64,000 bases of DNA from positions 1-64,000 of the IMG/VR virus record IMGVR_UViG_3300033075_000957; one strand, given 5' to 3'. Both the position numbers and the translations under genes were made by a program. This document shows, in pieces, positions 10,095 through 62,985 of this stretch (its first letter is position 1; every line of letters starts with the position of its first letter). A model generated the notes under the pieces. That model made no database searches and was not told the origin of the DNA. It was given only the letters and a program-made list of their open reading frames with translations. Source of the stretch: a virus (lineage: Duplodnaviria > Heunggongvirae > Uroviricota > Caudoviricetes).

Positions 10095-10180
10095 GGGGAT
10101 GTGTCGAAATTGCCAAACGAACTTCACTTAAAATGAAGCGGTTCTTACGAACCTTACGGGTTGAAGTCCCGTCATCCCCA
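10095..10180 (+). tRNA. tRNA-Leu (anticodon TAA), type II
   Basis: Acceptor GGGGATG/CATCCCC, anticodon stem CTTCA/TGAAG with loop CTTAAAA, long variable arm GGTTC-TTAC-GAACC, T-arm ACGGG-TTGAAGT-CCCGT. D-loop has CC where G18G19 normally sit and the T-loop has G at position 56, a compensatory swap; 86 nt. Confidence 0.65.
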
Positions 10181-10194
10181 CTTAGGAAATAAAT

Positions 10195-19810: not shown

Positions 19811-20100
19811 TGCTAACCGCTAAACAAGCACACGAAATATCAACTATGTCATCACAAGAAGATCGAATCGAAATTATTTGGCAGGAACTTTCTAAAGATA
19901 TTGAAAAAGCCTGTCGTGAACGTCTTCTTTGTATAAGCCATCCATACAGAACTTATGCCTATCCAATAGGAGGATTTAAATGGAAATCTTCCGAAAAGAA
20001 AGAAGTTTTCCGTCGTCTAAAAGAATTGAATTACAAAGTAACCAGAACACCCCTGTTTCTTGGGTTATATGATTTTAGGATTAGTTGGTCAAACACTTGA
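19810..20100 (+). CDS. hypothetical protein
   Basis: ORF 96 aa. Confidence 0.4.
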   Translation: MLTAKQAHEISTMSSQEDRIEIIWQELSKDIEKACRERLLCISHPYRTYAYPIGGFKWKSSEKKEVFRRLKELNYKVTRTPLFLGLYDFRISWSNT

Positions 20101-21018
20101 TAATTTCGGTCTTGTTGTTTCTTCCCATTTAACAACTACGTTGTAACCAAGAGATTTGATGTTTTCAAGACGATCGAGAGTTTCTTGATATAAGTCACCA
20201 AATGTTTTATTGGTATGCAAATTAATGTCTTTAGGATTAAAATAGTCCGGATGACCGTGCCAATACATTCCCAAATACTCATAGACCGTATTTGTTTTTG
20301 GGTCGAAGCCATCTACTCTATATTTTGTGTTTGGAATCCAGTATTCTCTTCTAGGAATGTCTAATAAATTAAGCCATTGCGTTGCGGATTTTGAAGAAGT
20401 GTGGTTCGCACATCTTGGACAACCAGAGCCATTTTGAAGATGATTATGGGCTTTGGTTTCAAAAGGACCGTGTTCTTGGCAAACTATCCATATCTTTTTA
20501 TGAGCCCCTTGATAGTCAACTAATTCATACCCATATATATCGCCATGAATCGCTTTTGCTTCGTTGATATATTGTTGAGTAGTTTTTCTTGATTTCTTAC
20601 CACAAAATTCGTTAGTACATTTTCGACATTTATAACCAGATAAATGATTTCCGGGCGTTTGTTCAAACACGCCATGATGCTTACACACAATCTTAATCTT
20701 CTTGTGATTGTTGATATATTTTGATAATGAATAATCGTATTCATTTCCATGTACCAATATTGCTTTTTCTATAAAACTTTTGGTATCTATTTTCTGAATA
20801 GATTTGTTTAGACACGATTGTCTATAACAAAATTTACAACCATGCTTTGCCTTCAGATAACGATGAGCAACTGTTTTGTATTTACCATGTTTCGGACAAA
20901 CAACAAAAATTAAAGAATTTTTTGTAAATACCTGTCCTGCAAACTCATATTCATAAGCGTTTTGAAAACGTTGCTTGGCTGTGTTTTGAAATAAAATAAA
21001 CGTCTCAATAGTACCCAT
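20089..21018 (-). CDS. homing-endonuclease-like protein: triple Zn-ribbon repeat plus Vsr/PD-(D/E)xK-like nuclease domain
   Basis: Three CxxHGxF..H..GxGCxxC modules; C-terminal YEYLGMYWHG...GYNVVVKWE resembles the DUF559/Vsr endonuclease motif; its own motif ATGTGTATAAGG directly upstream on the minus strand. Confidence 0.55.
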   Translation of the reverse strand: MGTIETFILFQNTAKQRFQNAYEYEFAGQVFTKNSLIFVVCPKHGKYKTVAHRYLKAKHGCKFCYRQSCLNKSIQKIDTKSFIEKAILVHGNEYDYSLSKYINNHKKIKIVCKHHGVFEQTPGNHLSGYKCRKCTNEFCGKKSRKTTQQYINEAKAIHGDIYGYELVDYQGAHKKIWIVCQEHGPFETKAHNHLQNGSGCPRCANHTSSKSATQWLNLLDIPRREYWIPNTKYRVDGFDPKTNTVYEYLGMYWHGHPDYFNPKDINLHTNKTFGDLYQETLDRLENIKSLGYNVVVKWEETTRPKLSSV

Positions 21019-29338: not shown

Positions 29339-29404
29339 ATTTGGGGCCGAAGATTTTTGCTTATCTCTTGTAATGAAACAGCAATTATCACTATATGCCC
29401 CGTG

Positions 29405-29530
29405 CGAACGGTAGCCGAGCAGTTAGGCGGCAGCAAAAAAGATATCCTTAGTCGCTTATACCCTATTGGGTCGAAGACATAGGATTAACACTGGGGCTGT
29501 TATACGATGGTGCAATTCCATCCCGTTCGA
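29405..29530 (+). ncRNA. tRNA-like module A (acceptor CGAACGG/CCGTTCG, D hairpin GCCG..CGGC, T-arm GATGG-TGCAATT-CCATC) with a ~75-nt insert replacing the anticodon arm
   Basis: Hand fold; the insert contains a CCTAT[TGGGTCGAAGAC]ATAGG hairpin. Confidence 0.4.
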
Positions 29531-29701
29531 TTTGGGCCGAAGATAATCGGTTATCCAACTCTTTTTAGTGTTTGCCCGCAAGGGCTTCCGAGAGTCACTA
29601 TGCCCATTTACCCGTGCTAGGCAATGGTGCCGATCTTTCTTTCATACCGGTTGTTCGTTAGAAAGAAAAGGTAGTTCGATTCTACCAGACGGGGTTTGAT
29701 G

Positions 29702-29816
29702 GTACGTTCCGCTAGGGCGGGAATGGTTTGTCTAATCATGTCCTTTCATGGGCCGAAAGATAAACCTTATCTTATCTGAAAACAAGATTCGGTGGGTTCG
29801 AATCCCACAACGTATC
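29702..29816 (+). ncRNA. tRNA-like module C (acceptor GTACGTT/AACGTAT, hairpin CCGC-TAGG-GCGG, T-arm GTGGG-TTCGAAT-CCCAC) with an insert containing ATGGGCCGAAAGATA
   Basis: Hand fold. Confidence 0.4.
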
Positions 29817-29922
29817 CTTTGGCGAGATAGCTTAATGGTTAGAGCACTAAATCCCCTGAACGAATTATATCCTTATGGGTCGATAGGATAGAGCCATTGT
29901 CTGGTGGAGATAGAGTTTTGAG

Positions 29923-30752: not shown

Positions 30753-32363
30753 ATGGCAAATTACGGAAACAGTCTCAAAAATCGTAAACGCACTCCGATC
30801 ACCGAAGCGGTGCCCGGTACAGCAATGGTGCCAAATAATGGCGGTGGATATGGTTATGTCGTAGACGACTTCATTCGTTTACAACGATTTCTGATTCTCG
30901 GATCGGACGGCGGTACCTACTATGTCGGCGAACGGGAGTTAACGGTTCAGAATGCTGAATGCATTACTAGATGCCTAAATTCTGATTACAAGCGTGCTAT
31001 TGATATGATCGTTAATATTAGCGATCAAGGTCGTGCTCCAAAGAATAGTCCTGCGGTTTTTGCTTTGGCAATGGCCGCTGCTCACGAAGGCAGCAACGCT
31101 CGCGAATGCCGTAAATATGCACTCGCTAACTTAGCCAAGGTCTGTCGTATCGGTACACATCTCTTTGAGTTTACCGAATACGTTACTAAAATGCGTGGAT
31201 GGGGGCGTTTGCTTAGAGACGGAGTTGCTTCGTGGTATACAGATATGGACGAGGAACGCCTTGCCTATCAGGTAATTAAGTACCCACAACGTACTATTAC
31301 TGAAGGTAACGCTTCTTCCGCATGGTCGCATAAGGACATCTTACGGTTATCCCGCCCATCTGGTAATAAAAACCATCAAACTATCTACAATTACATCCAT
31401 TCCGGAGAATTTAAATCTAGAGCAGAATCGCTCGCGATTATTGCTGGAACTGAAAAGATTAAACTGGCAAAAAATATAGATGAATGTGTAAAACTTATTT
31501 CTAAATATAATCTTCCTCATGAAGTTGTACCTAAGCAGTTTGCGAATTCGAAAGAAGTTTGGGAAACTTTGCTACCTAATCTTCCTGCTACTGCCCTGAT
31601 TCGTTCTCTTGGCCGCATGCAATCCTATGGATTATTTGAAAACGGTTCTGAATCTCTTAGGATTGCTTTAGAGAAAATTAGCGATGTAAATTGGTTGAAA
31701 AAGAGCCGTATGCATCCCCTCAATATTCTTATTGCCCAGCGTACCTATACTACTGCACACGGAACAAAAGGAAATCTTACATGGACGCCAAATCCGCAAA
31801 TTACGGAAGCTCTTGAAAAGGCATTCTATAATGCGTTTGACTATGTAGAGCCTTCTGGCAAAAACTTACTAATTGCTGTAGATATTTCTGGTAGTATGAT
31901 ATCTCGTTTTGGTACTTTTAATATTAGTTCCTGCGAAGTTGCGGCTGTTTTAGCTATGGTTGCTGCCCGAAGAGAACCTAGCTCATATATTGTCGGATTC
32001 GCTTCTCAGATTGTTGATCTAAAAATTACTAAAAATGATACTCTCGAATCTGCGTGCAAGAAATGCCAAGGAAACTGGGGTTCAACAAATTGTGCTGCTG
32101 CGATAGATCACGCAATCCAGCATCGTTTAAACGTGGATGCTTTTCTAATCATCACCGACAATGAGTCTAATACCGGTGTGCATCCTGCACAAGCTATTAA
32201 ACAATATAGAAATCAGGTTAACAAACCGAATGCTAAACTGATAAGTTTAGCGACTACAAGTACTCGTACTACAATTAATGATCCTAACGATTTCGATTGC
32301 CTCGATCTTGTCGGATTCGATACTGCGGTACCAGAACTTATCACGAATTTCATTCGCGAATAA
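30753..32363 (+). CDS. rsr: Ro60 ortholog (TROVE domain plus vWA domain; bacterial Rsr-like)
   Basis: 536 aa; N-terminal TROVE-like region (FIRLQRFLILGSDGGTYY); C-terminal vWA domain with MIDAS motif LLIAVDISGSM and ITDNESNTG; the size and architecture match bacterial Rsr. Confidence 0.7.
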   Translation: MANYGNSLKNRKRTPITEAVPGTAMVPNNGGGYGYVVDDFIRLQRFLILGSDGGTYYVGERELTVQNAECITRCLNSDYKRAIDMIVNISDQGRAPKNSPAVFALAMAAAHEGSNARECRKYALANLAKVCRIGTHLFEFTEYVTKMRGWGRLLRDGVASWYTDMDEERLAYQVIKYPQRTITEGNASSAWSHKDILRLSRPSGNKNHQTIYNYIHSGEFKSRAESLAIIAGTEKIKLAKNIDECVKLISKYNLPHEVVPKQFANSKEVWETLLPNLPATALIRSLGRMQSYGLFENGSESLRIALEKISDVNWLKKSRMHPLNILIAQRTYTTAHGTKGNLTWTPNPQITEALEKAFYNAFDYVEPSGKNLLIAVDISGSMISRFGTFNISSCEVAAVLAMVAARREPSSYIVGFASQIVDLKITKNDTLESACKKCQGNWGSTNCAAAIDHAIQHRLNVDAFLIITDNESNTGVHPAQAIKQYRNQVNKPNAKLISLATTSTRTTINDPNDFDCLDLVGFDTAVPELITNFIRE

Positions 32364-32548: not shown

Positions 32549-32634
32549 TACTAGGTGGCCGAGGTTGGTCGATGGCACAAAACTGTTAATTTTGCGGCGA
32601 AAGCCCGTCGTAGGTTCAAATCCTACCCTAGTAG
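32549..32634 (+). tRNA. type-II (long variable arm) tRNA, identity uncertain; the 7-nt loop CTGTTAA reads as anticodon GTT
   Basis: Acceptor TACTAGG/CCTAGTA perfect, D-stem GCC/GGC with 13-nt loop, anticodon stem CAAAA/TTTTG, variable arm CGGCGAAAGCCCGTC, T-arm GTAGG-TTCAAAT-CCTAC; 86 nt. Confidence 0.5.
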
Positions 32635-48076: not shown

Positions 48077-48223
48077 GCTATTGACTGCAATAGCAGTTTA
48101 TCAGTGTGTGGGGTAGCAGCCGCCCGCTTGCTTTGGGAGCAAGTATACGCAAGTGCAATTCTTGCCACATTGACTTTGGGCCAGTAACTCAATATGTAGA
48201 GTGCCGATTTTGCAAATCGGAGG

Positions 48224-48833
48224 TTGCGAAGTCGCATTCGCCTGTGTCCATTGATGATCGGTATTAGAATTAAAGAAAACGATTTGTTTGTTGTTGAACA
48301 CGGCGTTAAAAGACGTGCTGAAAAAGTTTTGTGCAAAGTATGTAATAAAAAATTTATTCGCCGGATTGGAAGGAAAACTAGTAGATGTTCTCGATCTTGT
48401 TTTTATAAAACGACACGTCATAAAAAGACTGTTCTTGAATGTTTCAATTGCCATCAAAAATTTGAAAGATTGCCAAATAAACTAAAGGGTGCTAGGCACG
48501 GTATTTATTTTTGTTCAAGAAAATGCAAAGACTTTGCTCAGAGTTTGCGAGGAAATTGTCCAAAAATTAGACCATCGCATTATGGCACTACAGACGAATA
48601 TTTAGTTAAAGATTTTTATAAAGAGCATTTTCATAAAGGATGTTTGTGCGGAGAAAAAGAATTATCTTTTACAAATCCATCATGTAGACGGAAATCATTC
48701 CAACAATCAATCAGAAAATTTAGAAATCGTCTGTGCTAACTGCCATATTAAACGACATCTGGTGTATAAAAACGGAACTTGGACATATTGTATGTCAAAA
48801 TTAACTCCTAGGGATCAGTTAGATAAAGTTTAA
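48224..48833 (+). pseudogene. HNH homing endonuclease interrupted by a frame change near the A-run 48651-48661
   Basis: CxxC Zn modules in the frame of ORF 48224..48739; the HNH core (LQIHHVDGNHSNNQSENLEIVCANCH) continues in the +1 frame 48606..48833; junction is CLCGEKE | KNYLLQIHH. Confidence 0.5.
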
Positions 48834-48907
48834 TGTCTTCGTGTTGTAATCAGAAGCAACCCTGTTTTGTACTCAGGAAGCGGGCGAGCATAGCGTCCCG
48901 GAGGCTT

Positions 48908-48940
48908 TAAAAATATTGTCAGACAAACATAATCGTTTTT
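48908..48940 (+). terminator. weak hairpin terminator candidate
   Basis: GTCAGA..TCTGAC stem with a 16-nt loop followed by ATTTT. Confidence 0.25.
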
Positions 48941-49063
48941 CTGACATTTTGCGGGCAGGACAAAGAGTAAGTCGTAACGCTCATAACGTTAAGAACTAGG
49001 TGCGACTCCTAGGCTCCGCAATTGCGAGTAAAATTGATTATAAATTAAACAAGTTTCATAATC

Positions 49064-49074
49064 TAGTGTATATA
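49064..49074 (+). promoter_or_regulatory. TAGTGTATATA promoter-like motif
   Basis: 6 nt before the ATG at 49080. Confidence 0.35.
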
Positions 49075-49079
49075 CTGTT

Positions 49080-49523
49080 ATGAAAATCTGTAATAAATGT
49101 TTAATTGAAAAAACCGATGGTGAGTTTCAAAAACGAGCATATGAGAAGGGTTTACAACCCTATTGTAAATCTTGTAATAAAATCAGTTTTCGTCGATATT
49201 ACGAAAAAAACAGCGAGTATATTGGTAAAAGAATCAATGGCAAAAAGACTAAAATTAGAAAATGGATTGCTGATTATAAGTTAGACAAACGATGCGAACG
49301 ATGCGAGGAAAACGCTCCGGAATGTCTAGAATTTCATCATCTTAATCCTTCGGAAAAGTCTTTTACAATTGGTCTTGCTGTTACGCAAAATAAAAAACTT
49401 TCTGAGATTCAAGAAGAAATTAAGAAGTGTATTGTGTTGTGTAAAAACTGTCACGCTAAATTACATTTCCAAGAAAAATTAAGTAAATCTGCGGTTGGTC
49501 CAGCGATCAATCAAGACCCATAA
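49080..49523 (+). CDS. HNH homing endonuclease
   Basis: CNKC..CKSC, CERCEEN..EFHHLNP..CKNCH. Confidence 0.65.
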   Translation: MKICNKCLIEKTDGEFQKRAYEKGLQPYCKSCNKISFRRYYEKNSEYIGKRINGKKTKIRKWIADYKLDKRCERCEENAPECLEFHHLNPSEKSFTIGLAVTQNKKLSEIQEEIKKCIVLCKNCHAKLHFQEKLSKSAVGPAINQDP

Positions 49524-49861
49524 TCTTGACAGCAAAGGGCAGCACTTTGGTCCGCAATTTTTCAAGTGTTGAGGACAAGCAACGAAAAGTAGGCAATAAC
49601 TCGAACCATCCATTCGATAGCCGGGAGTAGTTCCAGTTCCAAGCGATAATGCTTCTTTCTGAACACCGGGAGGTAAGTAAGAAAGGATTTTGCAAAATTG
49701 GTGTAATTGGCAGCACGTTAGCCTTCCAAGCTAATAGTATCCGATCGTGGCGGATATTTTGCATTGTCTTAATTTCTAAGGTACTGACTTTAATCGTTTA
49801 CGCCATTAGTCAGAGGCGGTACAAACCAATTAGAATACAGGTTATTCTTTTGGAGTATCGT

Positions 49862-50635
49862 ATGTCTTGGCAACCAACAAAACATGAAGACCGAATTGGC
49901 TATAAATATTATAAATTAACTATTATCGATAAAATAATTGAAAATAATTGGTTTTACTGGATATGTTCTTGCGAATGCGGCAAAACAATTAAATTAAAAC
50001 ACTGTAATCTTTTTGGAAAAAGAAAAGTTAGAAGTTGTGGTTGCTATCATTCTTATCCTAAAATCGATTTATTAAATAAAAAGATAGGAAAACTCACTCC
50101 CTTTAAGTTTATTAAAGAAGGGAAACAAAATTATTGGCAATGTAAATGCGATTGTGGACAGGAAATAATTAAAAAGCATAGTTATTTAGTAAATGCTCAA
50201 TATCCTGCTTGTGAAAAATGTCTTTCAGATAAAAGAAAACAAAACAATAGTAAAGTAGGAAAAAGATCCGATAAAAATCTTTACAAAAATCTGTATAGAC
50301 AGTACAGCAAATCAGCTGAACAAAGAGATTTAAAGTTCGAACTATCATTAGAAGATTGTAAAAAATTTTTTAATAAAAGATGTTTTTATTGCGATACTCT
50401 TCCACAAAATATTATTAAAAATTCTCATTATGAAATTATTTGGAATGGAATAGACAGAATTGATTCATCGGTAGGATATAATAAAGAAAACTGCGTCACT
50501 TGCTGTACCATCTGTAATTTTGCTAAAAGATCATTGTCTATAAACGAATTTAAAGATCATATAGAAAAAATTTATACAAATTTTATAAATTATCAGAAAA
50601 AAGACAGTAAGCAACTAATGTTATTTGACTGTTAA
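49862..50635 (+). CDS. HNH_3-family homing endonuclease
   Basis: ATG (MSWQPTKHED..) with GGAGTA RBS; CSCECG..CGC and CKCDCG Zn modules; GIDRIDSSVGYNKENCVTCCTICNFAK is HNH_3. Confidence 0.55.
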   Translation: MSWQPTKHEDRIGYKYYKLTIIDKIIENNWFYWICSCECGKTIKLKHCNLFGKRKVRSCGCYHSYPKIDLLNKKIGKLTPFKFIKEGKQNYWQCKCDCGQEIIKKHSYLVNAQYPACEKCLSDKRKQNNSKVGKRSDKNLYKNLYRQYSKSAEQRDLKFELSLEDCKKFFNKRCFYCDTLPQNIIKNSHYEIIWNGIDRIDSSVGYNKENCVTCCTICNFAKRSLSINEFKDHIEKIYTNFINYQKKDSKQLMLFDC

Positions 50636-50707
50636 TCAGTCAAGACGACCTACCGGTTTTTCAACGATGATAGGGAATACTGGCGTCCTGTCAGAGAATT
50701 ACCAGCA

Positions 50708-50740
50708 TCTTTGATTTCATTACTGAAATCAAAGATTTTC
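50708..50740 (+). terminator. rho-independent terminator
   Basis: Perfect 11-bp stem TCTTTGATTTC/GAAATCAAAGA with loop ATTACT, then TTTTC. Confidence 0.6.
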
Positions 50741-50825
50741 GACAGAGTAGGCAAGAGGCATAACCCGGTGGTGTACGGCCACCGCCCTTCAATGGTGTCA
50801 ACGGTTCGAATCCGTTTCTCTGTCA
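50741..50825 (+). tRNA. tRNA-like gene, paralog-like to the downstream tRNA-Tyr but with a non-canonical anticodon loop (TGTACGG) and one extra nucleotide before the 3' acceptor strand
   Basis: Acceptor GACAGAG/CTCTGTC perfect, T-arm AACGG-TTCGAAT-CCGTT, D region GGCAAGAGGCATAA aligns with the tRNA-Tyr D region GGCAAGCGGCAAAG, same 16-nt variable-arm length; the hairpin GGTGG-TGTACGG-CCACC puts G at position 33. Confidence 0.4.
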
Positions 50826-51024
50826 TTATAACGATTTGAGTTTGTGGACTTTCAATTCTATACTCATGGAGTTTTCCTTACTTACGATTCCCAAAGGGAT
50901 AGATGGAAGACTAGAAGGTAGGCCAAAATGCATTGGCACGAAAAAACATGGCACGGGTTTCCGATACGAAGGTTTGCATAGGGGTGATCCCTAACCGACT
51001 TCAAAGGCCGCCGTTTACGGCGAA

Positions 51025-51108
51025 GGGAGTGTAGGCAAGCGGCAAAGTTGCCACGCTGTAAACGTGGTGCCCGTAAGGGCTTCGGGGGTTCGAGTCCCTC
51101 TTCTCCCA
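51025..51108 (+). tRNA. tRNA-Tyr (anticodon GTA), type II
   Basis: Anticodon stem CCACG/CGTGG with canonical Tyr loop CTGTAAA; D-loop AGCGGCAAAG like bacterial tRNA-Tyr; variable hairpin GCCC-GTAA-GGGC; T-arm GGGGG-TTCGAGT-CCCTC; acceptor GGGAGTG/TTCTCCC has one mismatch; 84 nt. Confidence 0.6.
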
Positions 51109-51110
51109 TT

Positions 51111-51383
51111 ATGAAAATAAAACAATTAGCATTTATATTTCTTTTATCTACATCTTTAAGCCTTGTCTCATGTGAGGAACCTACTTTTTATACGACTGGA
51201 GAAATTATTAAAATTGAGAATCTTTCTGGTACGGAATTTATGAAAGATTTTGCTCAATATAACTATATTGTTCATTTTAAGTCTGATGACGGGCAGTTGT
51301 ATATGAAGTATTTTATATCGACAGGTTATAAGGTAAATGATAAAATAAAAATAGATATTAATAACGGATGGAGGAGCGAATGA
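51111..51383 (+). CDS. lipoprotein
   Basis: ATG at 51111: MKIKQLAFIFLLSTSLSLVSC with lipobox LVSC; the ORF-track start 51048 runs through the tRNA. Confidence 0.5.
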   Translation: MKIKQLAFIFLLSTSLSLVSCEEPTFYTTGEIIKIENLSGTEFMKDFAQYNYIVHFKSDDGQLYMKYFISTGYKVNDKIKIDINNGWRSE

Positions 51384-51823
51384 GCAGGAAACTGGATGCA
51401 CTGGTGGCGGAGAGGGTCATGGGGTTTACATGGTGGTCGGCGTGCGGAAAGTCTCACCTGATACCGCCGTGGGTGGAAGGTCTTTACGGATTCAGCGACG
51501 GGAGGCATTACCACTTTATCGCGGGCAAGCACTACGAAGCCACGCCCATTGAGTTGTCGTACAGCAACTATCAGAACCTTGCAACGCCGCCGTTCTCCAC
51601 CGACATCTCCGTAGCGTGGAAGGTGGTCGAGAAGATGAAAAATGACAACTGGAGAGGTTCTATCGAGGATTTTGGGAATCGATACCGCATCAACTTTTCT
51701 AAAGGCCCTTTGTGGCAAGCGTTTAATAGCGTGGAACATATTGATGTCCCGTTGGGCATCTGTCTCGCTGCCCTCCGTGTCATTGGCGTAGACGAGGCGA
51801 CCATTCAGGAGGCGATGAAATGA
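51380..51823 (+). CDS. hypothetical protein (GC-rich island gene 1; N-terminus reminiscent of phage ABA-sandwich-domain proteins)
   Basis: ATG at 51380 with GGAGGAGCG RBS; MSRKLDALVAERVMGFTWW; local GC about 55% against about 33% in the flanks. Confidence 0.45.
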   Translation: MSRKLDALVAERVMGFTWWSACGKSHLIPPWVEGLYGFSDGRHYHFIAGKHYEATPIELSYSNYQNLATPPFSTDISVAWKVVEKMKNDNWRGSIEDFGNRYRINFSKGPLWQAFNSVEHIDVPLGICLAALRVIGVDEATIQEAMK

Positions 51824-52050
51824 CCACCGACGAAATGAAGGCGGCGATTGAGAGGCTGAAGCAACTTCAATGCGACTCGCTTGATGAATACGACACGGTT
51901 CTCGCCCTCGCCGAGATCGGGCTGCTGGCGGTGGAGGCTGCTATCGAAGGCAACAAGCCGTCAAACGGTCACGATGATGAGTACAAAGCAATGCTGGACA
52001 GGACCAATGAGGCGGCTAACGCCTTCCTCGCCAAGCACGGATTGGAATAA
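51820..52050 (+). CDS. hypothetical protein (GC-rich island gene 2)
   Basis: ATGA start overlap; GC-rich, Ala/Glu-rich. Confidence 0.45.
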   Translation: MTTDEMKAAIERLKQLQCDSLDEYDTVLALAEIGLLAVEAAIEGNKPSNGHDDEYKAMLDRTNEAANAFLAKHGLE

Positions 52051-52052
52051 AA

Positions 52053-52292
52053 GTGAAGCACAAATGTGATATTTGTAATAAAATGGTCGATAATTTAATG
52101 ATAATGAGATTCTATGATATAGAAGCCCGAGACGGAAAGCTACGAACTTCAAAATTTCCACTTTCTTCCGGAGGAATTTTGAATCAAGTAGTTGGTTGTG
52201 GATCGGTTAAATGCTGGGAAAAAGCTATGTTTCTAAGAAAACAGGAAATCGAAAATGAATTACAAGAAAATAATTCAACTTCTAAAAAATAA
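52053..52292 (+). CDS. hypothetical protein
   Basis: CDICNK Zn-ribbon-like start. Confidence 0.4.
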   Translation: MKHKCDICNKMVDNLMIMRFYDIEARDGKLRTSKFPLSSGGILNQVVGCGSVKCWEKAMFLRKQEIENELQENNSTSKK

Positions 52293-52327
52293 TAAGTTAT
52301 TTATTTTAACTCATCATACTAAATACG

Positions 52328-52951
52328 GTGATTTTTCTTATATTCGATCTTAAAGAAAGAATAGATAATAGATATATAACGTTGCCTAAACCTCCGATCC
52401 AGCCTTCGCTTTCTAGAAATCAAGCGAATTCTTTACCAGAAGGAAAAGTTAAAACGATAGCTTTATCTGAAATCAAAAACTATGAAAAAGAATTTGCAGA
52501 ATATCACGGTGATCTTTTTGGATTAACGAAAAAGGCTATACAATGGCATATCGACGAGGATTTCCGACGCGAGCATCAGGCTCGTGAGCGTGAAATCGAA
52601 TATCTAAAACAACAAAAACTGTTTTTAGATACAAAAACCGCATTACCTCCTATCGATCTGCCGAAAGACGAACACATTAATTTTCTTTCTAGTGTTGAAG
52701 AAATCTTTGACGAAGGAGAGAAAATGCAACATTGCGTTTCTTCTTATGCAAAAATGGCTGTTGATGGTGGATTATATATTTTTCATTGTACTTACAAAAA
52801 TGCCGAAGCAACTATCGCTATCAATCCAGACGGAACGGTGCGGCAGTCCCGTGGTCCGGGAAACGAATCTAATAAAGCTTCTGCGTACGCTGAAAAAATT
52901 CTAAAAAAATGGGGAGAAGGCTTCCCAAAGCCTATAATATCTAGTGAATGA
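52328..52951 (+). CDS. hypothetical protein (PcfJ-like C-terminal region?)
   Basis: MQHCVSSYAKMAVDGGLYIFH..RQSRGPGNE resembles PcfJ-type motifs; weak. Confidence 0.4.
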   Translation: MIFLIFDLKERIDNRYITLPKPPIQPSLSRNQANSLPEGKVKTIALSEIKNYEKEFAEYHGDLFGLTKKAIQWHIDEDFRREHQAREREIEYLKQQKLFLDTKTALPPIDLPKDEHINFLSSVEEIFDEGEKMQHCVSSYAKMAVDGGLYIFHCTYKNAEATIAINPDGTVRQSRGPGNESNKASAYAEKILKKWGEGFPKPIISSE

Positions 52952-53652
52952 TTTTTGCTATCACTGGTGATTCGGCTTCTGGTAAGAGTACGCTTGCTGG
53001 ATTATTAAAAAATAATCTACGAGACGCATTCTTGCTCGAATGTGACCGTTATCATCGGTGGGAGCGGGACGACATACACTGGAAATCTTATACGCATCTT
53101 AATCCAGACGCTAATTTTCTCGATAAAATGCGGCAAGATATAGTTTCGCTTAAAAGTGGCGAAGCTATTAAACAGGTCGAATATGACCATAATAATGGAA
53201 AATTTACAGAACCATTAATAGAAAATTCATCTGAAAATATCATAGTATGCGGACTACACTCATTCTATACAGAAGATCATCTTTATGATTTAAAAATATT
53301 TATGGACCCTGATCCTCAATTACGTATTCAGTGGAAGGTTGATCGGGACACCATTAAACGTAATTATTCTGAAGAAAAGGTACTTAAACAAATTGCTGAG
53401 CGTAAAGAAGATTTTGAAAAATATGTATTGCCTCAGCGAAGTTTGGCCGATCTTATCGTTAATTTTAATTCTTTAGGATTAGCTTTGTTGATTCGTCGTA
53501 AATATGATATTTCGAAATTAAAATTAGAAAATCATATCGTAGGCAGCGTCGATCCCGATTTCTACATTCTTCGTTTTGCTCCTGATAGCCGCGAAATACA
53601 TTATCAACAAATCGTATCTATTATTCTTTCTCTTGTGGAGCCAGCAGTATGA
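52948..53652 (+). CDS. P-loop kinase of the phosphoribulokinase/uridine kinase (PRK/UK) family
   Basis: IFAITGDSASGKSTLA Walker A; LECDRYH, YDHNNGKF, CGLHSF, LRIQWKVDRDTIKR parallel PRK motifs (CLDDYH, YNH.TG, EGLH, KFAWKIQRD). Confidence 0.6.
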   Translation: MIFAITGDSASGKSTLAGLLKNNLRDAFLLECDRYHRWERDDIHWKSYTHLNPDANFLDKMRQDIVSLKSGEAIKQVEYDHNNGKFTEPLIENSSENIIVCGLHSFYTEDHLYDLKIFMDPDPQLRIQWKVDRDTIKRNYSEEKVLKQIAERKEDFEKYVLPQRSLADLIVNFNSLGLALLIRRKYDISKLKLENHIVGSVDPDFYILRFAPDSREIHYQQIVSIILSLVEPAV

Positions 53653-54359
53653 AATGGGTTGTTTATTCACATACCGACTATCTAGATGTGTTGGAAGTTT
53701 TTACTGACTACGCCAAAACAATTACAAATAAGGTATTATTGGTAAATGGGCCAGTGCCAGAAACGATACGGAAAGCATACGATGATATTATCTATTACGA
53801 CGATAAACTCCCCTACGCCAGTCGCCTACTGGAGTTGAAGCAATTACCGGATAAGTATATCTTATTTACTCATGATATCGATATTGTACTATATCGTGAT
53901 GATCCTGCTCTAGAGATTGTTCAAGAGTATATGGAGAAATTTGATTTTGATCGTGTTGATCTTAAGCCTAGCGGTAGCGAAAAACCTAACGGTTCCTTAG
54001 ACCGTATTACCGATCCTCTGGACTATCCATACAATGTTAACCCTTCCATATGGAAGCTTGAAACGTTTATGAAGATCATGTCTGATTGGCAAAATGAGAC
54101 TTATCGGACTATCGAAGGTTTGCCAGTTCAACACGATTGTTTAAAATACGAAATTTATCGACCAGTATCTACCTCGTCTGTATCGTGCGGTTATTTTAAG
54201 TGTTTACCTTGGTATCAGTTTTTGCACATTACACATCACGGTAAATTTATGCCTCCATGCAATGAACACATGGATCAAGAAATCGCAAAAATCTATACTG
54301 ATATTTGCGTGAAATATTTAAATAAATCAAAAAGAGAATTTAGAAAGAGTATGTGGTAA
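53649..54359 (+). CDS. hypothetical protein
   Basis: ORF 236 aa. Confidence 0.45.
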   Translation: MKWVVYSHTDYLDVLEVFTDYAKTITNKVLLVNGPVPETIRKAYDDIIYYDDKLPYASRLLELKQLPDKYILFTHDIDIVLYRDDPALEIVQEYMEKFDFDRVDLKPSGSEKPNGSLDRITDPLDYPYNVNPSIWKLETFMKIMSDWQNETYRTIEGLPVQHDCLKYEIYRPVSTSSVSCGYFKCLPWYQFLHITHHGKFMPPCNEHMDQEIAKIYTDICVKYLNKSKREFRKSMW

Positions 54360-55111
54360 TGACAACATTAATCATGCCAATGGCAGGACGCGGATCAAGA
54401 TTTGGAGAAGCTTACAGCCTTCCCAAGCCTCTCTTGCCAGTTGACGGTGGAATACCGATGGTTGTACGAGCTATTCAGGATTTACCTAATTGTGAACGTA
54501 AGATTTTCATCACTCAATGGGAACATGTTCTAAGATATGAAGCTGACCTTCGTCTTAGAAAATATTTTCCCGAAGCTTTGATTTTAGCACTTGGTTATAT
54601 AACTGATGGTCAAGCGACTACATGTAAATTAGGTATTCAGGAGTTTGACGTATCTGATGACGACCCTATAATGATCTCAGCCTGTGATCATGGTCAACTT
54701 TACGATTATGAGGCTTGGCTGGCGACGGAAGCGGATCAATCAATTGATGTTGCAGTCTGGTCTATCACTGGTCACCCAACAATGATTGCCAAGCCGGAGG
54801 CTTGGGGCTGGTTGCGTGCCGCAAACGGCAAAGTTACTGACGTACATTGCAAGTATCTTCCTTCAGACTTAGAGGCGGCAACTACGCCCGTGATAACGGG
54901 CACTATGTTTTTTAGGAAAGCGAAATATTTCCTAGACGGCTTGCGTCGGAACCGGAAACTAGGGTTCCGAACGAATGGGGAATTTTATGTAGATAACGTG
55001 TTAAATCGATGTATTGAAAACGGTCTTAATGTCTGCACGTTCTCCGTGCAGAAATATATTTGTTGGGGATTACCAGAAGATTATGAACAAAATAGAAACC
55101 AAATTGCGTAA
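54353..55111 (+). CDS. sugar-/polyol-phosphate nucleotidyltransferase (MobA/IspD/TarI-like NTP-transferase fold)
   Basis: N-terminus IMPMAGRGSRFGEAYSLPKPLLPVDGGIPMV matches the NTP_transferase signature (PMAGxGxRxxxxxPKxLLxV). Confidence 0.6.
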   Translation: MVMTTLIMPMAGRGSRFGEAYSLPKPLLPVDGGIPMVVRAIQDLPNCERKIFITQWEHVLRYEADLRLRKYFPEALILALGYITDGQATTCKLGIQEFDVSDDDPIMISACDHGQLYDYEAWLATEADQSIDVAVWSITGHPTMIAKPEAWGWLRAANGKVTDVHCKYLPSDLEAATTPVITGTMFFRKAKYFLDGLRRNRKLGFRTNGEFYVDNVLNRCIENGLNVCTFSVQKYICWGLPEDYEQNRNQIA

Positions 55112-60051: not shown

Positions 60052-62985
60052 ATGACTACATTTATCGACCATAACGAAATTTTAAGTCCAGAGTTTTTGC
60101 AGAAATATGTTGGCAAGCACCCAAAATGGGGTTTTAACGGATTAGGATATATAGTATATAAAAGAACTTATGCCAGATGGATTCCAGAACTTAAGCGGAC
60201 TGAAGAATGGTGGGAAACCGTCGCTAGATGCATTCGCGGTGCTCAAAAAATTGGGGCAGGATATACGGTACAGGAAGCAGAGCGTTTATACGATCATGTT
60301 TTTAATCTGCGTTGTAATTTTGCCGGGCGTATGTTATGGCAATTGGGAACAGAAACTGTTGATAAGATAGGACTTCCGAGTCTTTGCAATTGCTGGAATG
60401 TTAACATCAATTCTTTAGAATCATTTTGTTTTATCTTCGAGCATCTTATGCTCGGTGGCGGGGTGGGCTTCAGTGTAAAAAAGGAACATGTCCACGAATT
60501 ACCAAAGGTTAAAGACGGCGTAGTCATCAAACATCTGGCCACTAAAGACGCTGATTTTATAGTCCCTGATTCCCGTGAAGGATGGGTAGAATTACTACGC
60601 AAAATACTTAATGCTTATTTTGTAACCGGAAAAGGCTTTACTTACTCTACGATTTTAATTCGTGGAGCCGGAGAAAAGATTAATGGATTCGGCGGTACGG
60701 CCAGTGGTCCACAAATTTTAATTGATGGACTAAATAATATTTTTGGCGTGATCTCAAAGCGTGTTGGTAAGAAATTAAGAAGTATTGACGCATTAGATAT
60801 CGCTAATATTCTAGGCAGTATCGTAGTTGCCGGAAACGTTAGAAGAAGTGCTCAGTTAGCTCTTGGCGATGCGGATGATAAATTATTTCTTAATGCTAAA
60901 CGCTGGGACTTAGGTAATATTCCTAACTGGCGTGCTATGTCAAATAATACTGTAAGTGCAGATGATTTCACTTATCTTAGCAATGATTTTTGGCGTGGAT
61001 ATGAGGGCGACGGAGAGCCTTATGGTTTAGCAAATATTGATTTATGTCGAAAGTTTGGCCGTTTAATCGACGGGCCTATGTCTAAATGTTCTTTGTATCC
61101 ACAAAGAGAAGATAAGGTAGAAGGTTTAAATCCTTGCCAACCAAAATGGGCGTTTGTTTTAACTAAAAACGGTATTAGACAATTTGGCAAGCTACAGATT
61201 GGAGACGAAATTTGGTCTTCAGAAGGTTGGACGAAAGTTGTAAAGAAATGGTCCACCGGTATTAAAAATGTGTATAAATACACAACTACAGCAGGTATTT
61301 TTTATGGAACAGAAAACCATAGAGTACTTAGTGACAACAAAAAAATCGAAGTACAAGAAGCGGAATCTATCGACATTCTTCGAGGAGGATTATCAACAGA
61401 AGACGATCTGCTACCACAAGACATCATGGATGGACTAGTTATTGGCGATGGTATGGTGCATAAAGCATCCAATAATTTAGTTCTTTTATGTATTGGACAA
61501 GATGATCAGGATTATTTTCAGAGCGAAATTACACCGCTGATACTTATCGATCGCTTTGGTATAAGCGACAATGCTTATGAAATACAAACCACAATTAAAT
61601 CAGAAGAACTTGCTAGAACTTTTGATCGAACAATCCCTGATCGTTTTGTAACTGGATCGGCGAAAACAATTCAAGGATTTTTAAGAGGGCTATATTCTGC
61701 CAACGGTTCGGTTTGCGGCAATCGTATTACATTAAAAGCAACTTCGCTTGCCCTGATCGAACAGGTACAAGTGATGCTTAGTGCTATTGGAATCAAATCT
61801 TATTATACCACAAACAAATCGTCATTGGTAACATTTGAAAACGGCGAATATCTTTGTAAACAAAGTTATGATTTAAACATTACTATTGATCGCCATCAGT
61901 TTGTTAAAAAAATTGGATTTATTCAATCTTATAAGAACGATAAAATTCGGAGTTCCAATCCAGTTCAAAATGAAAAAGTATCCTACGATATTAAATCTGT
62001 TGAACTGGTATCTCGCGAAGAAGTTTTTGATATTACTGTTGACAATCTTTCGCACACCTATTGGACTCATGGATGTAACGTGTCTAATTGTGCCGAAGCC
62101 ACGCTTGAACACGGTGAACCGTGTGATCTAGCTGAACAATATCTTCACAATCTTTCTTCACAGGAAGAATTTAATGATTGTGCAATGTTGCTATATAAAA
62201 CGCAAAAAGCTATCTTACGTTTAGATTCTATCTCCGATTGGACTAACGCAGTAGTGAAGCGAAACATGCGTGTTGGTCTTGGCGTAACTGGTGTTTGTGA
62301 AGATATCAAAAAGATTGTATGGTTAGATGATGGATATCGCTCACTTCGAGCGATAGATAAAGAGTGGTCTAAGAAACGTGGCTGGCCTGAAAGTATAAAG
62401 CTAACGGTTGTCAAGCCGTCAGGCACGTTAAGTTTGCTCGCCGGATGCACTCCCGGATGCCATCCCGCTTACGATAAATACTATATCCGTAGAGTACGGA
62501 TGGCCTCTTCTGATTCATTAGTTAATACTTGTCGTAATTTAGGTTGTAAAATTGAATATCAGATCGGTTTTGATGGAAAAGAACAGCACGACACTGTGGT
62601 TGTAGAATTTCCTTGCAAAGCCTCAGATAACGCAATTATTGCCAAAGATATGACTGCGGTAGAACAATTAGAAATTATGAAGACTTTACAGTCAGTTTGG
62701 GCCGATCAGGCTGTATCGGTAACAGTTTATTATCGTAAAGAAGAATTGCCAGCAATTAAATTATGGCTTGAAGAAAACTATGAAACATCGGTTAAAAGTG
62801 TAAGTTTCTTACTTCATAACGACCACGGATTCCGGCAGGCCCCGTATGAATCTATTACTAAAGAAAAATATGAAGAACTTATTAAGAATATGAAACCTTT
62901 AAATTCGTTGATAACTAATAATGATATTGGTGGCGAATTAGTAGAGGGTGTAGAATGCGTTAATGGAGCATGTCCCATTAGATAA
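60052..62985 (+). CDS. ribonucleotide reductase catalytic subunit (class II-like) carrying an intein
   Basis: 977 aa; MLGGGVGFS glycine-rich motif; active-site NPC|AE split by the intein (GLNP-[intein]-CAEATLE); C-terminal CVNGAC redox pair. Confidence 0.65.
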   Translation: MTTFIDHNEILSPEFLQKYVGKHPKWGFNGLGYIVYKRTYARWIPELKRTEEWWETVARCIRGAQKIGAGYTVQEAERLYDHVFNLRCNFAGRMLWQLGTETVDKIGLPSLCNCWNVNINSLESFCFIFEHLMLGGGVGFSVKKEHVHELPKVKDGVVIKHLATKDADFIVPDSREGWVELLRKILNAYFVTGKGFTYSTILIRGAGEKINGFGGTASGPQILIDGLNNIFGVISKRVGKKLRSIDALDIANILGSIVVAGNVRRSAQLALGDADDKLFLNAKRWDLGNIPNWRAMSNNTVSADDFTYLSNDFWRGYEGDGEPYGLANIDLCRKFGRLIDGPMSKCSLYPQREDKVEGLNPCQPKWAFVLTKNGIRQFGKLQIGDEIWSSEGWTKVVKKWSTGIKNVYKYTTTAGIFYGTENHRVLSDNKKIEVQEAESIDILRGGLSTEDDLLPQDIMDGLVIGDGMVHKASNNLVLLCIGQDDQDYFQSEITPLILIDRFGISDNAYEIQTTIKSEELARTFDRTIPDRFVTGSAKTIQGFLRGLYSANGSVCGNRITLKATSLALIEQVQVMLSAIGIKSYYTTNKSSLVTFENGEYLCKQSYDLNITIDRHQFVKKIGFIQSYKNDKIRSSNPVQNEKVSYDIKSVELVSREEVFDITVDNLSHTYWTHGCNVSNCAEATLEHGEPCDLAEQYLHNLSSQEEFNDCAMLLYKTQKAILRLDSISDWTNAVVKRNMRVGLGVTGVCEDIKKIVWLDDGYRSLRAIDKEWSKKRGWPESIKLTVVKPSGTLSLLAGCTPGCHPAYDKYYIRRVRMASSDSLVNTCRNLGCKIEYQIGFDGKEQHDTVVVEFPCKASDNAIIAKDMTAVEQLEIMKTLQSVWADQAVSVTVYYRKEELPAIKLWLEENYETSVKSVSFLLHNDHGFRQAPYESITKEKYEELIKNMKPLNSLITNNDIGGELVEGVECVNGACPIR
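61135..62088 (+). mobile_element. intein (318 aa) with LAGLIDADG homing-endonuclease domain, inserted before the catalytic Cys of the RNR NPCxE motif
   Basis: Begins CQPKWAFVLTKNG (block A), TENHRVL (block B), LAGLIDADG motifs GLVIGDGMVH and GFLRGLYSANGSV, ends ..CNVSN followed by the extein Cys. Confidence 0.55.

What the first reader, a model, noticed from the sequence alone, without database searches (positions are those of the whole stretch)
50708..51108. tRNA-Tyr plus a diverged Tyr-paralog with an aberrant anticodon loop, immediately after a strong terminator
The element at 50741..50825 aligns arm by arm with the bona fide tRNA-Tyr at 51025..51108. D-region, variable-arm length, T-arm and a perfect acceptor all correspond. 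However, its anticodon hairpin is GGTGG-TGTACGG-CCACC, with G at position 33 and no GTA in register, and there is an extra T before the 3' acceptor strand. It may be a decaying duplicate, a decoy for a host tRNA-targeting factor, or a tRNA with altered decoding. The 200-nt spacer between the two (50826..51024) is non-coding and GC-richer.
Basis: seen in the sequence. Interest (0 to 1): 0.5.

Follow-up and report, generated by a model that had tools for sequence, protein, structure and literature searches.

The report
Remodelled duplicate of phage tRNA-Tyr
Next to its normal tyrosine tRNA gene, this uncultured large phage carries a second, heavily altered copy that keeps a tRNA's overall shape but has a rebuilt anticodon arm that probably cannot read a codon, so it is a one-off tRNA-shaped RNA of unknown use, not a sequencing error or a normal tRNA.

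Summary
ARAGORN calls 50741-50825 "tRNA-Val(tac)" and 51025-51108 tRNA-Tyr. Rfam's tRNA model accepts the Tyr gene at 44.8 bits but gives the first element no more than 15.7 bits.

The element is 59-64% identical to tRNA-Tyr genes (z about 7) and 38-49% identical to every other tRNA in the window. Three related phage contigs carry a single ordinary tRNA-Tyr. Their 5' leader (CAAAGAT[T]C) matches the leader of the aberrant copy, not that of the window's good Tyr. The element is therefore a lineage-specific local duplicate.

It did not drift neutrally. Nine substitutions fell in the acceptor and T stems, and all 12 pairs are still Watson-Crick (neutral simulation P about 2e-6). The tertiary-core bases are intact.

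The anticodon arm was rebuilt: four of five pairs are flipped, and the loop is UGUACGG with G33, which can also close to 7 bp plus a 5-nt loop. The D stem has 2 pairs, the variable stem is weak, and an extra U sits between the T stem and the acceptor.

My best reading is a structurally maintained, non-decoding tRNA-like RNA (about 0.45). Rivals are a recently dead pseudogene (about 0.28), a type II tRNA-Val(UAC) (about 0.15) and a decoy. The element is a singleton, with no conservation or expression data. Interest is moderate to low.

The parts
49862..50635 (+). HNH homing-endonuclease-like gene immediately upstream. Related phages lack it and have an unrelated 258-aa zinc-ribbon ORF there.
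   Evidence: PHROG HNH/endonuclease families, E 1.7e-18 (scored on the slightly longer reading 49859-50635). The gene is called as 257 aa in Logan contigs.
50708..50739 (+). Perfect 12-bp A/U-rich hairpin (50708-50719 paired with 50724-50735, loop TTAC) followed by TTTT. It is terminator-like but weak. Its 3' arm is the conserved tRNA leader.
   Evidence: Fold -13 kcal/mol, z -5.6. The terminator scan does not call it. In L053 the same leader CACCAAAG pairs with CTTTGGTG about 165 nt upstream.
50729..50740 (+). 5' leader TCAAAGATTTTC, homologous to the leader of the single tRNA-Tyr in related phages (CATCAAAGATC, CACCAAAGATTC).
   Evidence: Alignment A2. Shuffle test p 0.0005-0.0045; the leader of the window's good Tyr gives p >= 0.6 at 12-20 nt. 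The motif is not a general tRNA leader in the window.
50741..50825 (+). The aberrant tRNA-Tyr paralog (ARAGORN 'tRNA-Val tac'), 85 nt. Acceptor 50741-50747 pairs with 50818-50824. The D region is 50750-50765 and has a 2-bp stem. Discriminator A is at 50825. No CCA is encoded.
   Evidence: The Rfam tRNA model scores at most 15.7 bits.
50767..50783 (+). Rebuilt anticodon arm GGTGG-TGTACGG-CCACC. Four of five pairs are flipped relative to the ancestral CCACG/CGTGG. G occupies position 33. With C26-G44 and U32.G38 the arm folds as 7 bp plus the 5-nt loop GUACG.
   Evidence: MFE and centroid structures, ARAGORN drawing, pair table.
50784..50799 (+). Long variable region with only a 3-pair stem (G.U, C-G, C-G). 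The Tyr genes have a 4-bp GCCC/GGGC stem here.
   Evidence: ARAGORN drawings, alignment A2.
50800..50817 (+). T arm AACGG-TTCGAAT-CCGTT, 5 perfect pairs (three changed from the Tyr T stem, two of them on both strands), then an extra unpaired T at 50817.
50826..51024 (+). 199-nt spacer, 44% GC. There is no coding evidence, no significant fold and no detectable homology to the relatives' spacers. It contains a sigma-70-like site at 50836-50864 (9 of 12 matches).
   Evidence: The best Rfam match is Clostridiales-2 at 21.5 bits against a gathering score of 58.6.
51025..51108 (+). Bona fide type II tRNA-Tyr(GUA), 92-94% identical to the Tyr of related phages. Its five differences from relatives include four that weaken helices: a U6.U67 mismatch, G7.U66, and G10.U25 and G11.U24.
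   Evidence: Rfam 44.8 bits. blastn to L052-L054. Pair table and alignment.
51111..51383 (+). Lipoprotein-like ORF that starts 2 nt after tRNA-Tyr. It served as the anchor for finding related loci.
   Evidence: Homologs P0012 and P0013 at 62-65% identity. Their loci are L052-L054.

Best explanation
The element is a lineage-specific local duplicate of the phage's own type II tRNA-Tyr gene. It lies in a tRNA island that HNH endonuclease genes are reshuffling.

After duplication the copy was held to a tRNA-like L-shape. It kept the acceptor helix, T arm, T loop, D-loop GG and the U8/A14/G15/C48 core. Its identity-bearing parts were rewritten: acceptor pairs 2:71 and 3:70, T-stem pairs 49-51, and the whole anticodon arm.

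The rebuilt arm has G33 instead of the near-universal U33, and GUA sits one base out of register. The loop can close to five bases. I therefore think the RNA no longer decodes.

The inferred mechanism is as follows. The element is co-transcribed with the upstream genes through the weak hairpin. RNase P cuts at G1. The 3' end is trimmed and CCA is added by host enzymes. The product persists as a stable tRNA-shaped RNA of about 88 nt. That RNA would either mark a processing point between the HNH mRNA and the downstream tRNA-Tyr/lipoprotein transcript, or occupy proteins that recognise a tRNA-Tyr-like body.

Shown here: the sequence, the fold, the paralogy, the absence from relatives and the compensatory pattern. 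Inferred: transcription, processing and any role.
For: Paralogy:
- The element is 59-64% identical to Tyr genes (z 6.6-7.6) and 38-49% identical to all other tRNAs of the window.
- The D-region motif TAGGCAAGNGGCA is shared only with the adjacent Tyr. No tRNA in the genome contigs or JGI metagenome scans has it in that position, and the only other D-region occurrence in IMG/VR is the odd L043/L046 element.
- The leader matches the relatives' Tyr leader.

Lineage-specific:
- L052, L053 and L054 have one Tyr and no second copy by ARAGORN, Rfam or blastn.
- L050 has neither gene at the syntenic site.

Structural selection:
- Nine substitutions fell in the 24 acceptor and T stem positions, four pairs changed on both sides, and all 12 pairs are Watson-Crick.
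- In the neutral simulation the probability is 2e-6 for all Watson-Crick pairs and 1.1e-4 if G.U is allowed.
- The tertiary-core bases are intact.
- The MFE structure is itself a cloverleaf.

Non-decoding:
- G33, a predicted 7-bp stem with a 5-nt loop, a 2-bp D stem and an extra U at the T/acceptor junction.
- The Rfam tRNA score is at most 15.7 bits, against 38.7-65.9 bits for the nine tRNAs of the window that reach Rfam's threshold.

Not an assembly artefact: a second assembly is identical.
Against: - The element is a singleton. No second genome carries it, so no covariation across species, no conservation and no expression data exist.
- The compensatory pattern shows past constraint, not present function.
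- Several departures from the tRNA norm (D stem, variable stem, extra U, G33) are equally what a dying gene would show.
- The hairpin plus TTTT only 5 nt upstream could stop transcription, and no promoter-like site lies between it and the element.
- Relatives do without it.
- The proposed roles (processing mark, protein sink) have no direct support.
- For the T5-family tRNA-Tyr acting against retron-Eco7, changing the anticodon abolished protection (PMC11555353). That argues against a simple decoy mode in that system.
Confidence: 0.45

Rival explanations
1. It is a recently dead tRNA pseudogene. The duplicate functioned for a while as a tRNA, which explains the compensated stems. It has since been inactivated by a few lesions (U33 to G or a loop shift, the extra U, the C12.A23 mismatch) and is now inert DNA between genes.
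For: There are four separate departures from the tRNA norm. The Rfam score is at most 15.7 bits. The element is absent from all four related loci. It sits between a terminator-like hairpin and a promoter-like site at 50836-50864. A functional Tyr gene lies 200 nt away, so the copy is redundant. Pseudo-tRNAs are commonly reported in phage tRNA clusters (listed papers).
Against: The 17 pairs of the acceptor, anticodon and T helices have no mismatch, and the roughly 11 tertiary-core bases are untouched, despite about 38% overall divergence. Inactivation would therefore have to be very recent. Four flipped pairs in the anticodon stem look like remodelling rather than decay.
Confidence: 0.28
2. It is a working tRNA with changed identity. 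A Tyr-derived type II body now carries anticodon UAC, is charged by ValRS, and supplies the phage's frequent GUA codons.
For: ARAGORN reads UAC at positions 34-36. A35, C36 and A73 are the main ValRS identity elements in E. coli (my own knowledge). GTA makes up 35% of Val codons in the window's ORFs (RSCU 1.40), and no other tRNA-Val is present in the window. The other phage tRNAs mostly read A- or U-ending codons. The substitutions fall on identity positions 2:71, 3:70 and 49-51. A long-variable-arm tRNA with a non-Leu/Ser/Tyr anticodon has a precedent: tRNA-Asn in this window and in phiKZ.
Against: G33 removes the base on which the U-turn is built. The loop can close through U32.G38. Positions 37 and 38 are G and G, not the A usual after C36. 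The extra U disturbs T/acceptor stacking, and the D stem has 2 pairs. A long variable arm is unknown in tRNA-Val and could attract other synthetases. The element is not conserved in relatives.
Confidence: 0.15
3. It is a decoy for a host tRNA-Tyr-directed defence nuclease or other tRNA-Tyr-binding protein. It presents a Tyr-like body and the UGUA tetranucleotide in a loop that is cleavage-resistant or non-productive.
For: It keeps the Tyr-like D loop, a long variable region, A73 and UGUA in the loop. The phage invests in RNA repair and surveillance, with an RNA ligase and Ro60. Host systems that deplete tRNA-Tyr, and phage tRNA countermeasures, are documented (PMC11555353, PMC10264068).
Against: No defence system or host is known for this phage. 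In the documented tRNA-Tyr case, rescue required an intact anticodon, which points to supplementation rather than titration. The element is a singleton. The one other Tyr-like element with an abnormal anticodon arm that I found (L043/L046) shares only the D loop.
Confidence: 0.08

Closest known systems
Pseudo-tRNAs and tRNA-like RNAs in phage tRNA clusters (for example T4 rnaC/rnaD stable RNAs; candidate tRNA-like structures in IMG/VR, PMC10690425)
   Same: It is a tRNA-derived, tRNA-shaped sequence inside a phage tRNA island interspersed with homing-endonuclease genes, and its function is unknown. T4's tRNA region likewise holds a homing endonuclease, SegB (PMC2330249, listed).
   Different: Here the parent gene (the adjacent tRNA-Tyr) and the ancestral state (the relatives' single Tyr) are identifiable, and divergence was compensatory. 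What I say about T4 rnaC/rnaD rests on my own knowledge and was not tested here.
Phage tRNAs with anticodon-loop mutations proposed to escape host anticodon nucleases (van den Berg et al. 2023, PMC10264068)
   Same: It is a phage tRNA copy whose anticodon loop differs from the standard one.
   Different: The tRNAs in that paper keep U33 and the anticodon register and remain decoders. This element has G33, a shifted register and a rebuilt stem.
T5-family tRNA-Tyr that counteracts retron-Eco7 (Azam et al. 2024, PMC11555353)
   Same: It is a phage-encoded tRNA-Tyr lineage in a tRNA-rich region. This gives a possible reason to duplicate the Tyr gene.
   Different: That tRNA works by supplying functional tRNA-Tyr, and changing its anticodon abolished rescue. 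That role fits the good copy at 51025-51108, not the aberrant one.
Bacterial and phage Y RNAs of the YrlA type (Chen et al. 2014, PMC4201824)
   Same: They are non-decoding RNAs that mimic the tRNA D arm, T arm and acceptor. This phage encodes Ro60.
   Different: YrlA is permuted: its ends lie in a Ro-binding helix that carries GNCGAAN0-1G. This element has normal tRNA topology, no such helix, and lies 18 kb from the Ro60 gene. The Y-RNA-like motifs of this phage are at 29340-29830.
tRNA gene remolding (alloacceptor shift after duplication), known mainly from organelles
   Same: It combines duplication, a change of anticodon and changes at identity positions.
   Different: No canonical new anticodon loop resulted here. 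The comparison rests on my own knowledge.

Membership tests
Canonical elongator tRNA (Rfam RF00005) | Covariance-model score at or above the gathering score of 29 bits | tested here: not met
   There is no tRNA row for this element. The best match in the clan is tRNA-Sec at 15.7 bits, E 4.3, so the tRNA model scores lower. Of the window's 12 called tRNA or tRNA-like genes, the nine that reach Rfam's threshold score 38.7-65.9 bits; the ARAGORN calls at 10095 and 29611 also fail it.
Canonical elongator tRNA (Rfam RF00005) | Seven-base anticodon loop with U33 | tested here: not met
   The loop is UGUACGG with G33. The predicted fold closes it to 5 nt.
Canonical elongator tRNA (Rfam RF00005) | 7-bp acceptor stacked directly on a 5-bp T stem; T loop TTCRANY; D-loop GG; U8, A14 and C48 | tested here: inconclusive
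   The helices, the T loop and the core bases are all present. However, an extra U at 50817 separates the T stem from the acceptor, and the D stem has only 2 pairs.
Bacterial-type tRNA-Tyr (type II, GUA, A73) | Sequence descent from tRNA-Tyr | tested here: met
   It is 62-64% identical to orthologous Tyr genes (z about 7.5). The D-loop motif and the leader are shared.
Bacterial-type tRNA-Tyr (type II, GUA, A73) | GUA at positions 34-36 | tested here: not met
   GUA occupies positions 33-35 of the 7-nt loop.
Bacterial-type tRNA-Tyr (type II, GUA, A73) | Long variable arm and discriminator A73 | tested here: met
   The variable region is 16 nt with a weak 3-pair stem. A is at 50825.
tRNA-Val(UAC) | UAC at 34-36 in a standard loop, a short (type I) variable region, and charging by ValRS | tested here: not met
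   ARAGORN reads UAC at 34-36, but position 33 is G and the variable region is long. Charging cannot be tested with these tools.
tRNA-Sec (RF01852) | Score of at least 47 bits, UCA anticodon, 8/5 acceptor/T geometry | tested here: not met
   The score is 15.7 bits and there is no UCA.
Y RNA / YrlA | Ends paired in a Ro-binding helix carrying GNCGAAN0-1G, encoded next to the Ro60 gene | tested here: not met
   No helix extends beyond the 7-bp acceptor. The only motif hit nearby (51019) lies in the Tyr leader. Ro60 is 18 kb away.
Intrinsic (Rho-independent) terminator, for the hairpin 50708-50739 | G+C-rich stem followed by a run of at least 5-6 U | tested here: not met
   The stem is a perfect 12 bp, but only 3 pairs are G-C and only 4 T follow. 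The scan does not call it.
Neutrally decaying tRNA pseudogene | Substitutions fall without regard to base pairing | tested here: not met
   Nine stem substitutions left 12 of 12 Watson-Crick pairs; simulation P = 2e-6.

The most novel reading that the evidence does not exclude
The phage has converted a spare copy of its tRNA-Tyr gene into a dedicated non-decoding tRNA mimic. The RNA would have an L-shape and a Tyr-like body and be processed and CCA-tailed. It would act on the host, for instance by soaking up a tRNA-Tyr-directed defence nuclease or a synthetase. Alternatively the copy has become a long-variable-arm tRNA-Val that works without U33. Either way it would be a caught-in-the-act example of a phage tRNA gaining a new function.
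Probability: 0.15. Interest if true: 0.7.

Novelty: new variant of a known kind. Interest (0 to 1): 0.35.

Why it matters
Phage tRNA genes are now seen as weapons against host tRNA-cleaving defences, not only as codon supplements. In this case the parent gene, the ancestral single-copy state and the derived copy can all be read side by side. The derived copy kept its shape while its anticodon arm and identity positions were rewritten. If the RNA is expressed, it would show how phages make tRNA mimics or new tRNA identities from duplicates. If it is not expressed, it is a well-documented pseudo-tRNA and a warning that ARAGORN's 'tRNA-Val' call should not enter an annotation.

Tried and rejected
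Searches that found no relative:
- DNA similarity to 50,697 phage records, near and distant modes: no match for the locus. For the 85-nt element alone, only two short chance matches at E 0.7.
- Exact and degenerate pattern scans:
  - The anticodon hairpin in IMG/VR gave one chance hit inside a helicase gene.
  - The T arm plus acceptor in IMG/VR gave none.
  - The D-loop + TGTA + T-loop pattern gave none in IMG/VR and 24 chance hits in JGI metagenomes.
  - The D-loop + T-loop pattern gave 4 hits in IMG/VR and 3 chance hits in the genome collection.
  - The conserved Tyr 43-mer in IMG/VR gave none.

Anchors and look-ups:
- Homologs of the ABA-sandwich and PRK proteins turned out not to be syntenic.
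- Exact-protein look-ups for strain variants returned only the same Logan contig.

Readings of the spacer that I rejected:
- Structured RNA: z -0.47 on the + strand and 0.04 on the - strand.
- Known RNA family: the best match is 21.5 bits against a threshold of 58.6.
- Protein-coding: no PHROG match.
- Homology to the relatives' flanking spacers: not above shuffles.
- Repeat elsewhere in the window: none.

Readings of the element that I rejected:
- tRNA-Sec, Y RNA, sequencing or assembly error, and chimera with a foreign 3' half. The last fails because the 5' acceptor changes at positions 2 and 3 are matched on the 3' strand.
- A promoter shared between the trailer of the element and the relatives' Tyr trailer: the scan of L053 does not support it.

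Full report
**What is there.** The window is part of a large uncultured phage.
- It carries NAMPT, an RNA ligase, a clamp loader, an intein-bearing class II ribonucleotide reductase, Ro60, several HNH genes and a dozen tRNA genes.
- Identical proteins are recorded on a 156-kb JGI contig.
- A Logan assembly of SRR32380200 is 100% identical to window 48380-54623.
- ARAGORN calls 50741-50825 'tRNA-Val(tac)' and 51025-51108 tRNA-Tyr(gta).
- Rfam's tRNA model accepts the Tyr gene at 44.8 bits. For the first element it reports only a tRNA-Sec match of 15.7 bits (E 4.3), so the tRNA model scores no higher.

**Anatomy of the element**.
- The acceptor GACAGAG/CTCTGTC has seven perfect pairs, and the discriminator is A.
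- U8 and A9 are present. The D region GGC-AAGAGGCATA-ACC forms only two pairs plus a C.A mismatch.
- The anticodon hairpin is GGTGG-TGTACGG-CCACC. G occupies position 33, and GTA lies one base 5' of the anticodon register.
- The variable region is 16 nt with a three-pair stem.
- The T arm AACGG-TTCGAAT-CCGTT is perfect. An extra T at 50817 precedes the 3' acceptor strand.
- The minimum-energy fold is a cloverleaf. In it the anticodon arm extends to seven pairs (C26-G44 and U32.G38) around a five-base loop.
- ARAGORN makes 0 calls in 2.56 Mb of shuffled window and 3 calls in 2.56 Mb of random 55% GC sequence. The cloverleaf is therefore not chance.

**The upstream hairpin and the spacer.**
- The hairpin at 50708-50735 is a perfect 12-bp stem (z -5.6). 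Only three of its pairs are G-C and only four T follow, so the terminator scan does not list it.
- The 199-nt spacer is 44% GC, against 26-28% in the flanking genes.
- The spacer shows no significant fold, no Rfam family and no coding signal.

**It is a copy of tRNA-Tyr.**
- The element is 59% identical to the window's Tyr and 62-64% identical to the Tyr genes of related phages (z 6.6-7.6). It is 38-49% identical to every other tRNA of the window (z <= 2.1).
- Both copies carry TAGGCAAGNGGCA in the D region.
- With a T loop downstream, that motif occurs in the D region of no tRNA among one genome for each of 185,579 species or in the JGI metagenome scan. In IMG/VR it occurs there only in one odd tRNA-like element.

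**Related phages.** Close relatives were hard to find, and DNA searches and several protein anchors failed. Two anchors worked.
- The 520-aa protein led to L050. That locus is syntenic from dUTPase to PRK but has only tRNA-Ile and tRNA-Asn in the interval.
- The lipoprotein just downstream of tRNA-Tyr led to L052, L053 and L054.
- In L053 the order is tRNA-Gly(tcc), a 258-aa zinc-ribbon ORF, about 190 nt, one tRNA-Tyr, about 176 nt, then the lipoprotein.
- tRNA-Gly is 98.8% identical to the window's and tRNA-Tyr 92-94%, while the coding DNA is 64-78% identical.
- None of these loci has a second Tyr-like element by ARAGORN, Rfam or blastn.
- The HNH gene, the hairpin, the aberrant copy and the spacer are thus specific to the window's lineage.

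**Which copy sits at the ancestral place.**
- The 12 nt before the aberrant copy (TCAAAGATTTTC) match the leaders of the relatives' Tyr, CATCAAAGATC and CACCAAAGATTC (p 0.0005-0.0045).
- The leader of the window's good Tyr does not match at 12-20 nt. At best it holds a vestige, TTCAAAGG, at about -22.
- The motif is not a general tRNA leader.
- In L053 this leader pairs with CTTTGGTG about 165 nt upstream and closes a roughly 173-nt element that contains a T-arm-like hairpin. That hairpin covaries between L052 (GCGGG/CCCGC) and L053 (GAGGG/CCCTC).
- In the window the same leader pairs with a complement only 4 nt away, which is the 'terminator'. I infer that the hairpin is the collapsed closing helix of that element rather than a purpose-built terminator.
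- The trailers and spacers show no similarity above shuffles.
- The aberrant copy keeps ancestral bases (A6, C24, C25, C66) that the window's good Tyr has lost. This explains why it is closer to the relatives' Tyr than to its neighbour.

**How it diverged.** Compared with the ancestral Tyr:
- Acceptor pair 2:71 went from G-C to A-U, and pair 3:70 from G-C to C-G.
- T-stem pair 49:65 went from G-C to A-U, pair 50:64 from G.U to A-U, and pair 51:63 from G-C to C-G.
- Four of the five anticodon-stem pairs are flipped.
- That makes nine substitutions in the 24 acceptor and T stem positions, with all 12 pairs still Watson-Crick.
- One million neutral replicates with nine random substitutions gave this outcome at a frequency of 2e-6, or 1.1e-4 if G.U is allowed.
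- The bases that build the tRNA elbow and core (U8, A14, G15, the D-loop GG, C48, T54-T55-C56, A58) are unchanged.
- The copy was therefore held to a tRNA-like shape while the parts that carry identity were rewritten. Simple neutral decay is excluded. A very recent death after a functional period is not excluded.

**What it does now.** This is unknown, and the following is my weighting.
- *Non-decoding tRNA-shaped RNA, about 0.45.* It has G33, a loop that can close, a 2-bp D stem, an extra junction base and a very low model score. Against that, three helices are flawless. Processing by RNase P and CCA addition are inferred from the intact acceptor/T minihelix and A73. No CCA is encoded, and the same is true of every tRNA in the window.
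- *Recently dead pseudogene, about 0.28.*
- *Type II tRNA-Val(UAC), about 0.15.* In its favour are A35, C36 and A73, the 35% share of GTA among Val codons and a precedent: this window and phiKZ both have a tRNA-Asn(GUU) with a long variable arm.
- *Decoy for a tRNA-Tyr-directed host factor, about 0.08.* This is conceivable given the current literature. However, in the one studied tRNA-Tyr case, rescue needed the anticodon.

**Comparison with known things.**
- It is not a member of RF00005, tRNA-Sec or YrlA by the tests listed in the membership table.
- It is closest to the loosely defined class of phage pseudo-tRNAs and tRNA-like RNAs in tRNA islands.
- What is unusual here is that the parent gene and the ancestral state are both visible.
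- I rate it a new variant of a known kind, of moderate to low interest. It is a singleton with no expression or conservation evidence.

**Limits.**
- tRNAscan-SE was not available.
- No reads could be examined.
- Only three related Tyr loci, two of them nearly identical, and one further syntenic locus could be compared.
- Synthetase identity rules, the T4 stable RNAs and tRNA remolding are cited from my own knowledge.

Noticed in passing
window 29340-29830 (+), upstream of the Ro60 gene at 30753-32363: The window holds a Ro60 ortholog (TROVE + vWA). About 1 kb upstream lie four copies of the bacterial Y-RNA Ro-binding motif GNCGAAN0-1G, in the extended form UGGGNCGAAGAU. GGGNCGAAGA occurs at 29344, 29468 and 29534; these are its only three occurrences in the window, against 0.22 expected. 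GGGCCGAAAGA occurs at 29750. Three T-arm-like hairpins are interleaved at 29505-29521, 29670-29686 and 29793-29809. There is no Rfam Y RNA or YrlA match even at E <= 10. This looks like an array of divergent phage Y RNAs and may be more interesting than the assigned finding.
   Followed up: partly
window 29611-29694 (+): ARAGORN calls this 'tRNA-Glu(ttc)', but Rfam does not call it a tRNA. It has a 4-nt D loop, an 'anticodon' arm of about 10 bp with a 17-nt top, a good T arm and a 5-7-bp acceptor. It sits inside the candidate Y-RNA array and is probably a tRNA-like module rather than a tRNA.
   Followed up: partly
window 32549-32634 (+): This is a tRNA-Asn(GUU) with a long variable arm (GGCGAAAGCCC), a D arm that resembles tRNA-Ser by my recollection (not tested), and discriminator G. 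Rfam scores it at 51 bits. phiKZ-like phages carry an annotated tRNA-Asn with the same variable arm, 82% column identity. A related phage (L050) has an ordinary short-arm tRNA-Asn next to the same tRNA-Ile.
   Followed up: partly
L053 1625-1797 (also L054 about 94-266; 3' part in L052 1-62): An element of about 173 nt lies directly upstream of tRNA-Tyr in related phages. An 8-bp helix (CTTTGGTG/CACCAAAG) closes it and abuts a T-arm-like hairpin that covaries between L052 and L053. It has no Rfam match. It may be a large tRNA-like or Y-like RNA. The window keeps only its closing helix, as the hairpin at 50708-50735.
   Followed up: partly
L043 9567-9642 (-) and L046 2159-2234 (-), IMG/VR contigs: This is a 94-nt cloverleaf-like element with a 7-bp acceptor, the D loop TAGGCAAGTGGCAAG, a good T arm and an 11-bp bulged 'anticodon' arm whose loop centre reads GGUA. 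ARAGORN does not call it at default settings. It may be another Tyr-like tRNA mimic in unrelated phages.
   Followed up: partly
window 51025-51108 (+): The 'good' tRNA-Tyr differs from its orthologs at five positions. Four of these weaken helices: A6U gives a U.U mismatch, C66U gives G.U, and C24U and C25U give two G.U pairs in the D stem. These changes could reflect relaxed selection, or immunity to the neighbouring HNH endonuclease.
   Followed up: no
window 48178-48250 (+) and 10095-10181 (+): The two tRNA finders disagree here. Rfam finds a tRNA at 48178-48250 (38.7 bits; the loop TTTGCAA suggests Ala-UGC) that ARAGORN misses. ARAGORN calls tRNA-Leu(taa) at 10095-10181, which Rfam does not report. 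That Leu gene has T loop TTGAAGT and a D loop without GG, which may be a swapped 19:56 pair.
   Followed up: no
window 48224-50635 (+), 20089-21018 (-) and 60052-62985 (+): At least one HNH endonuclease gene (49862-50635) and two Cys-rich, HNH-like ORFs with no family match (48224-48739, 49080-49523) are interleaved with tRNA-Pro, tRNA-Ala, tRNA-Gly and tRNA-Tyr. Another HNH gene lies at 20089-21018. The ribonucleotide reductase carries a LAGLIDADG intein-like insert. Mobile endonucleases appear to be reshaping this genome, and the syntenic interval in relatives is much shorter.
   Followed up: no
window 13972-15144 (+): This is an RNA ligase (PHROG 968, E 8e-39). Together with Ro60 it suggests that the phage repairs or surveys RNA, which fits a conflict over host tRNA cleavage.
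   Followed up: no
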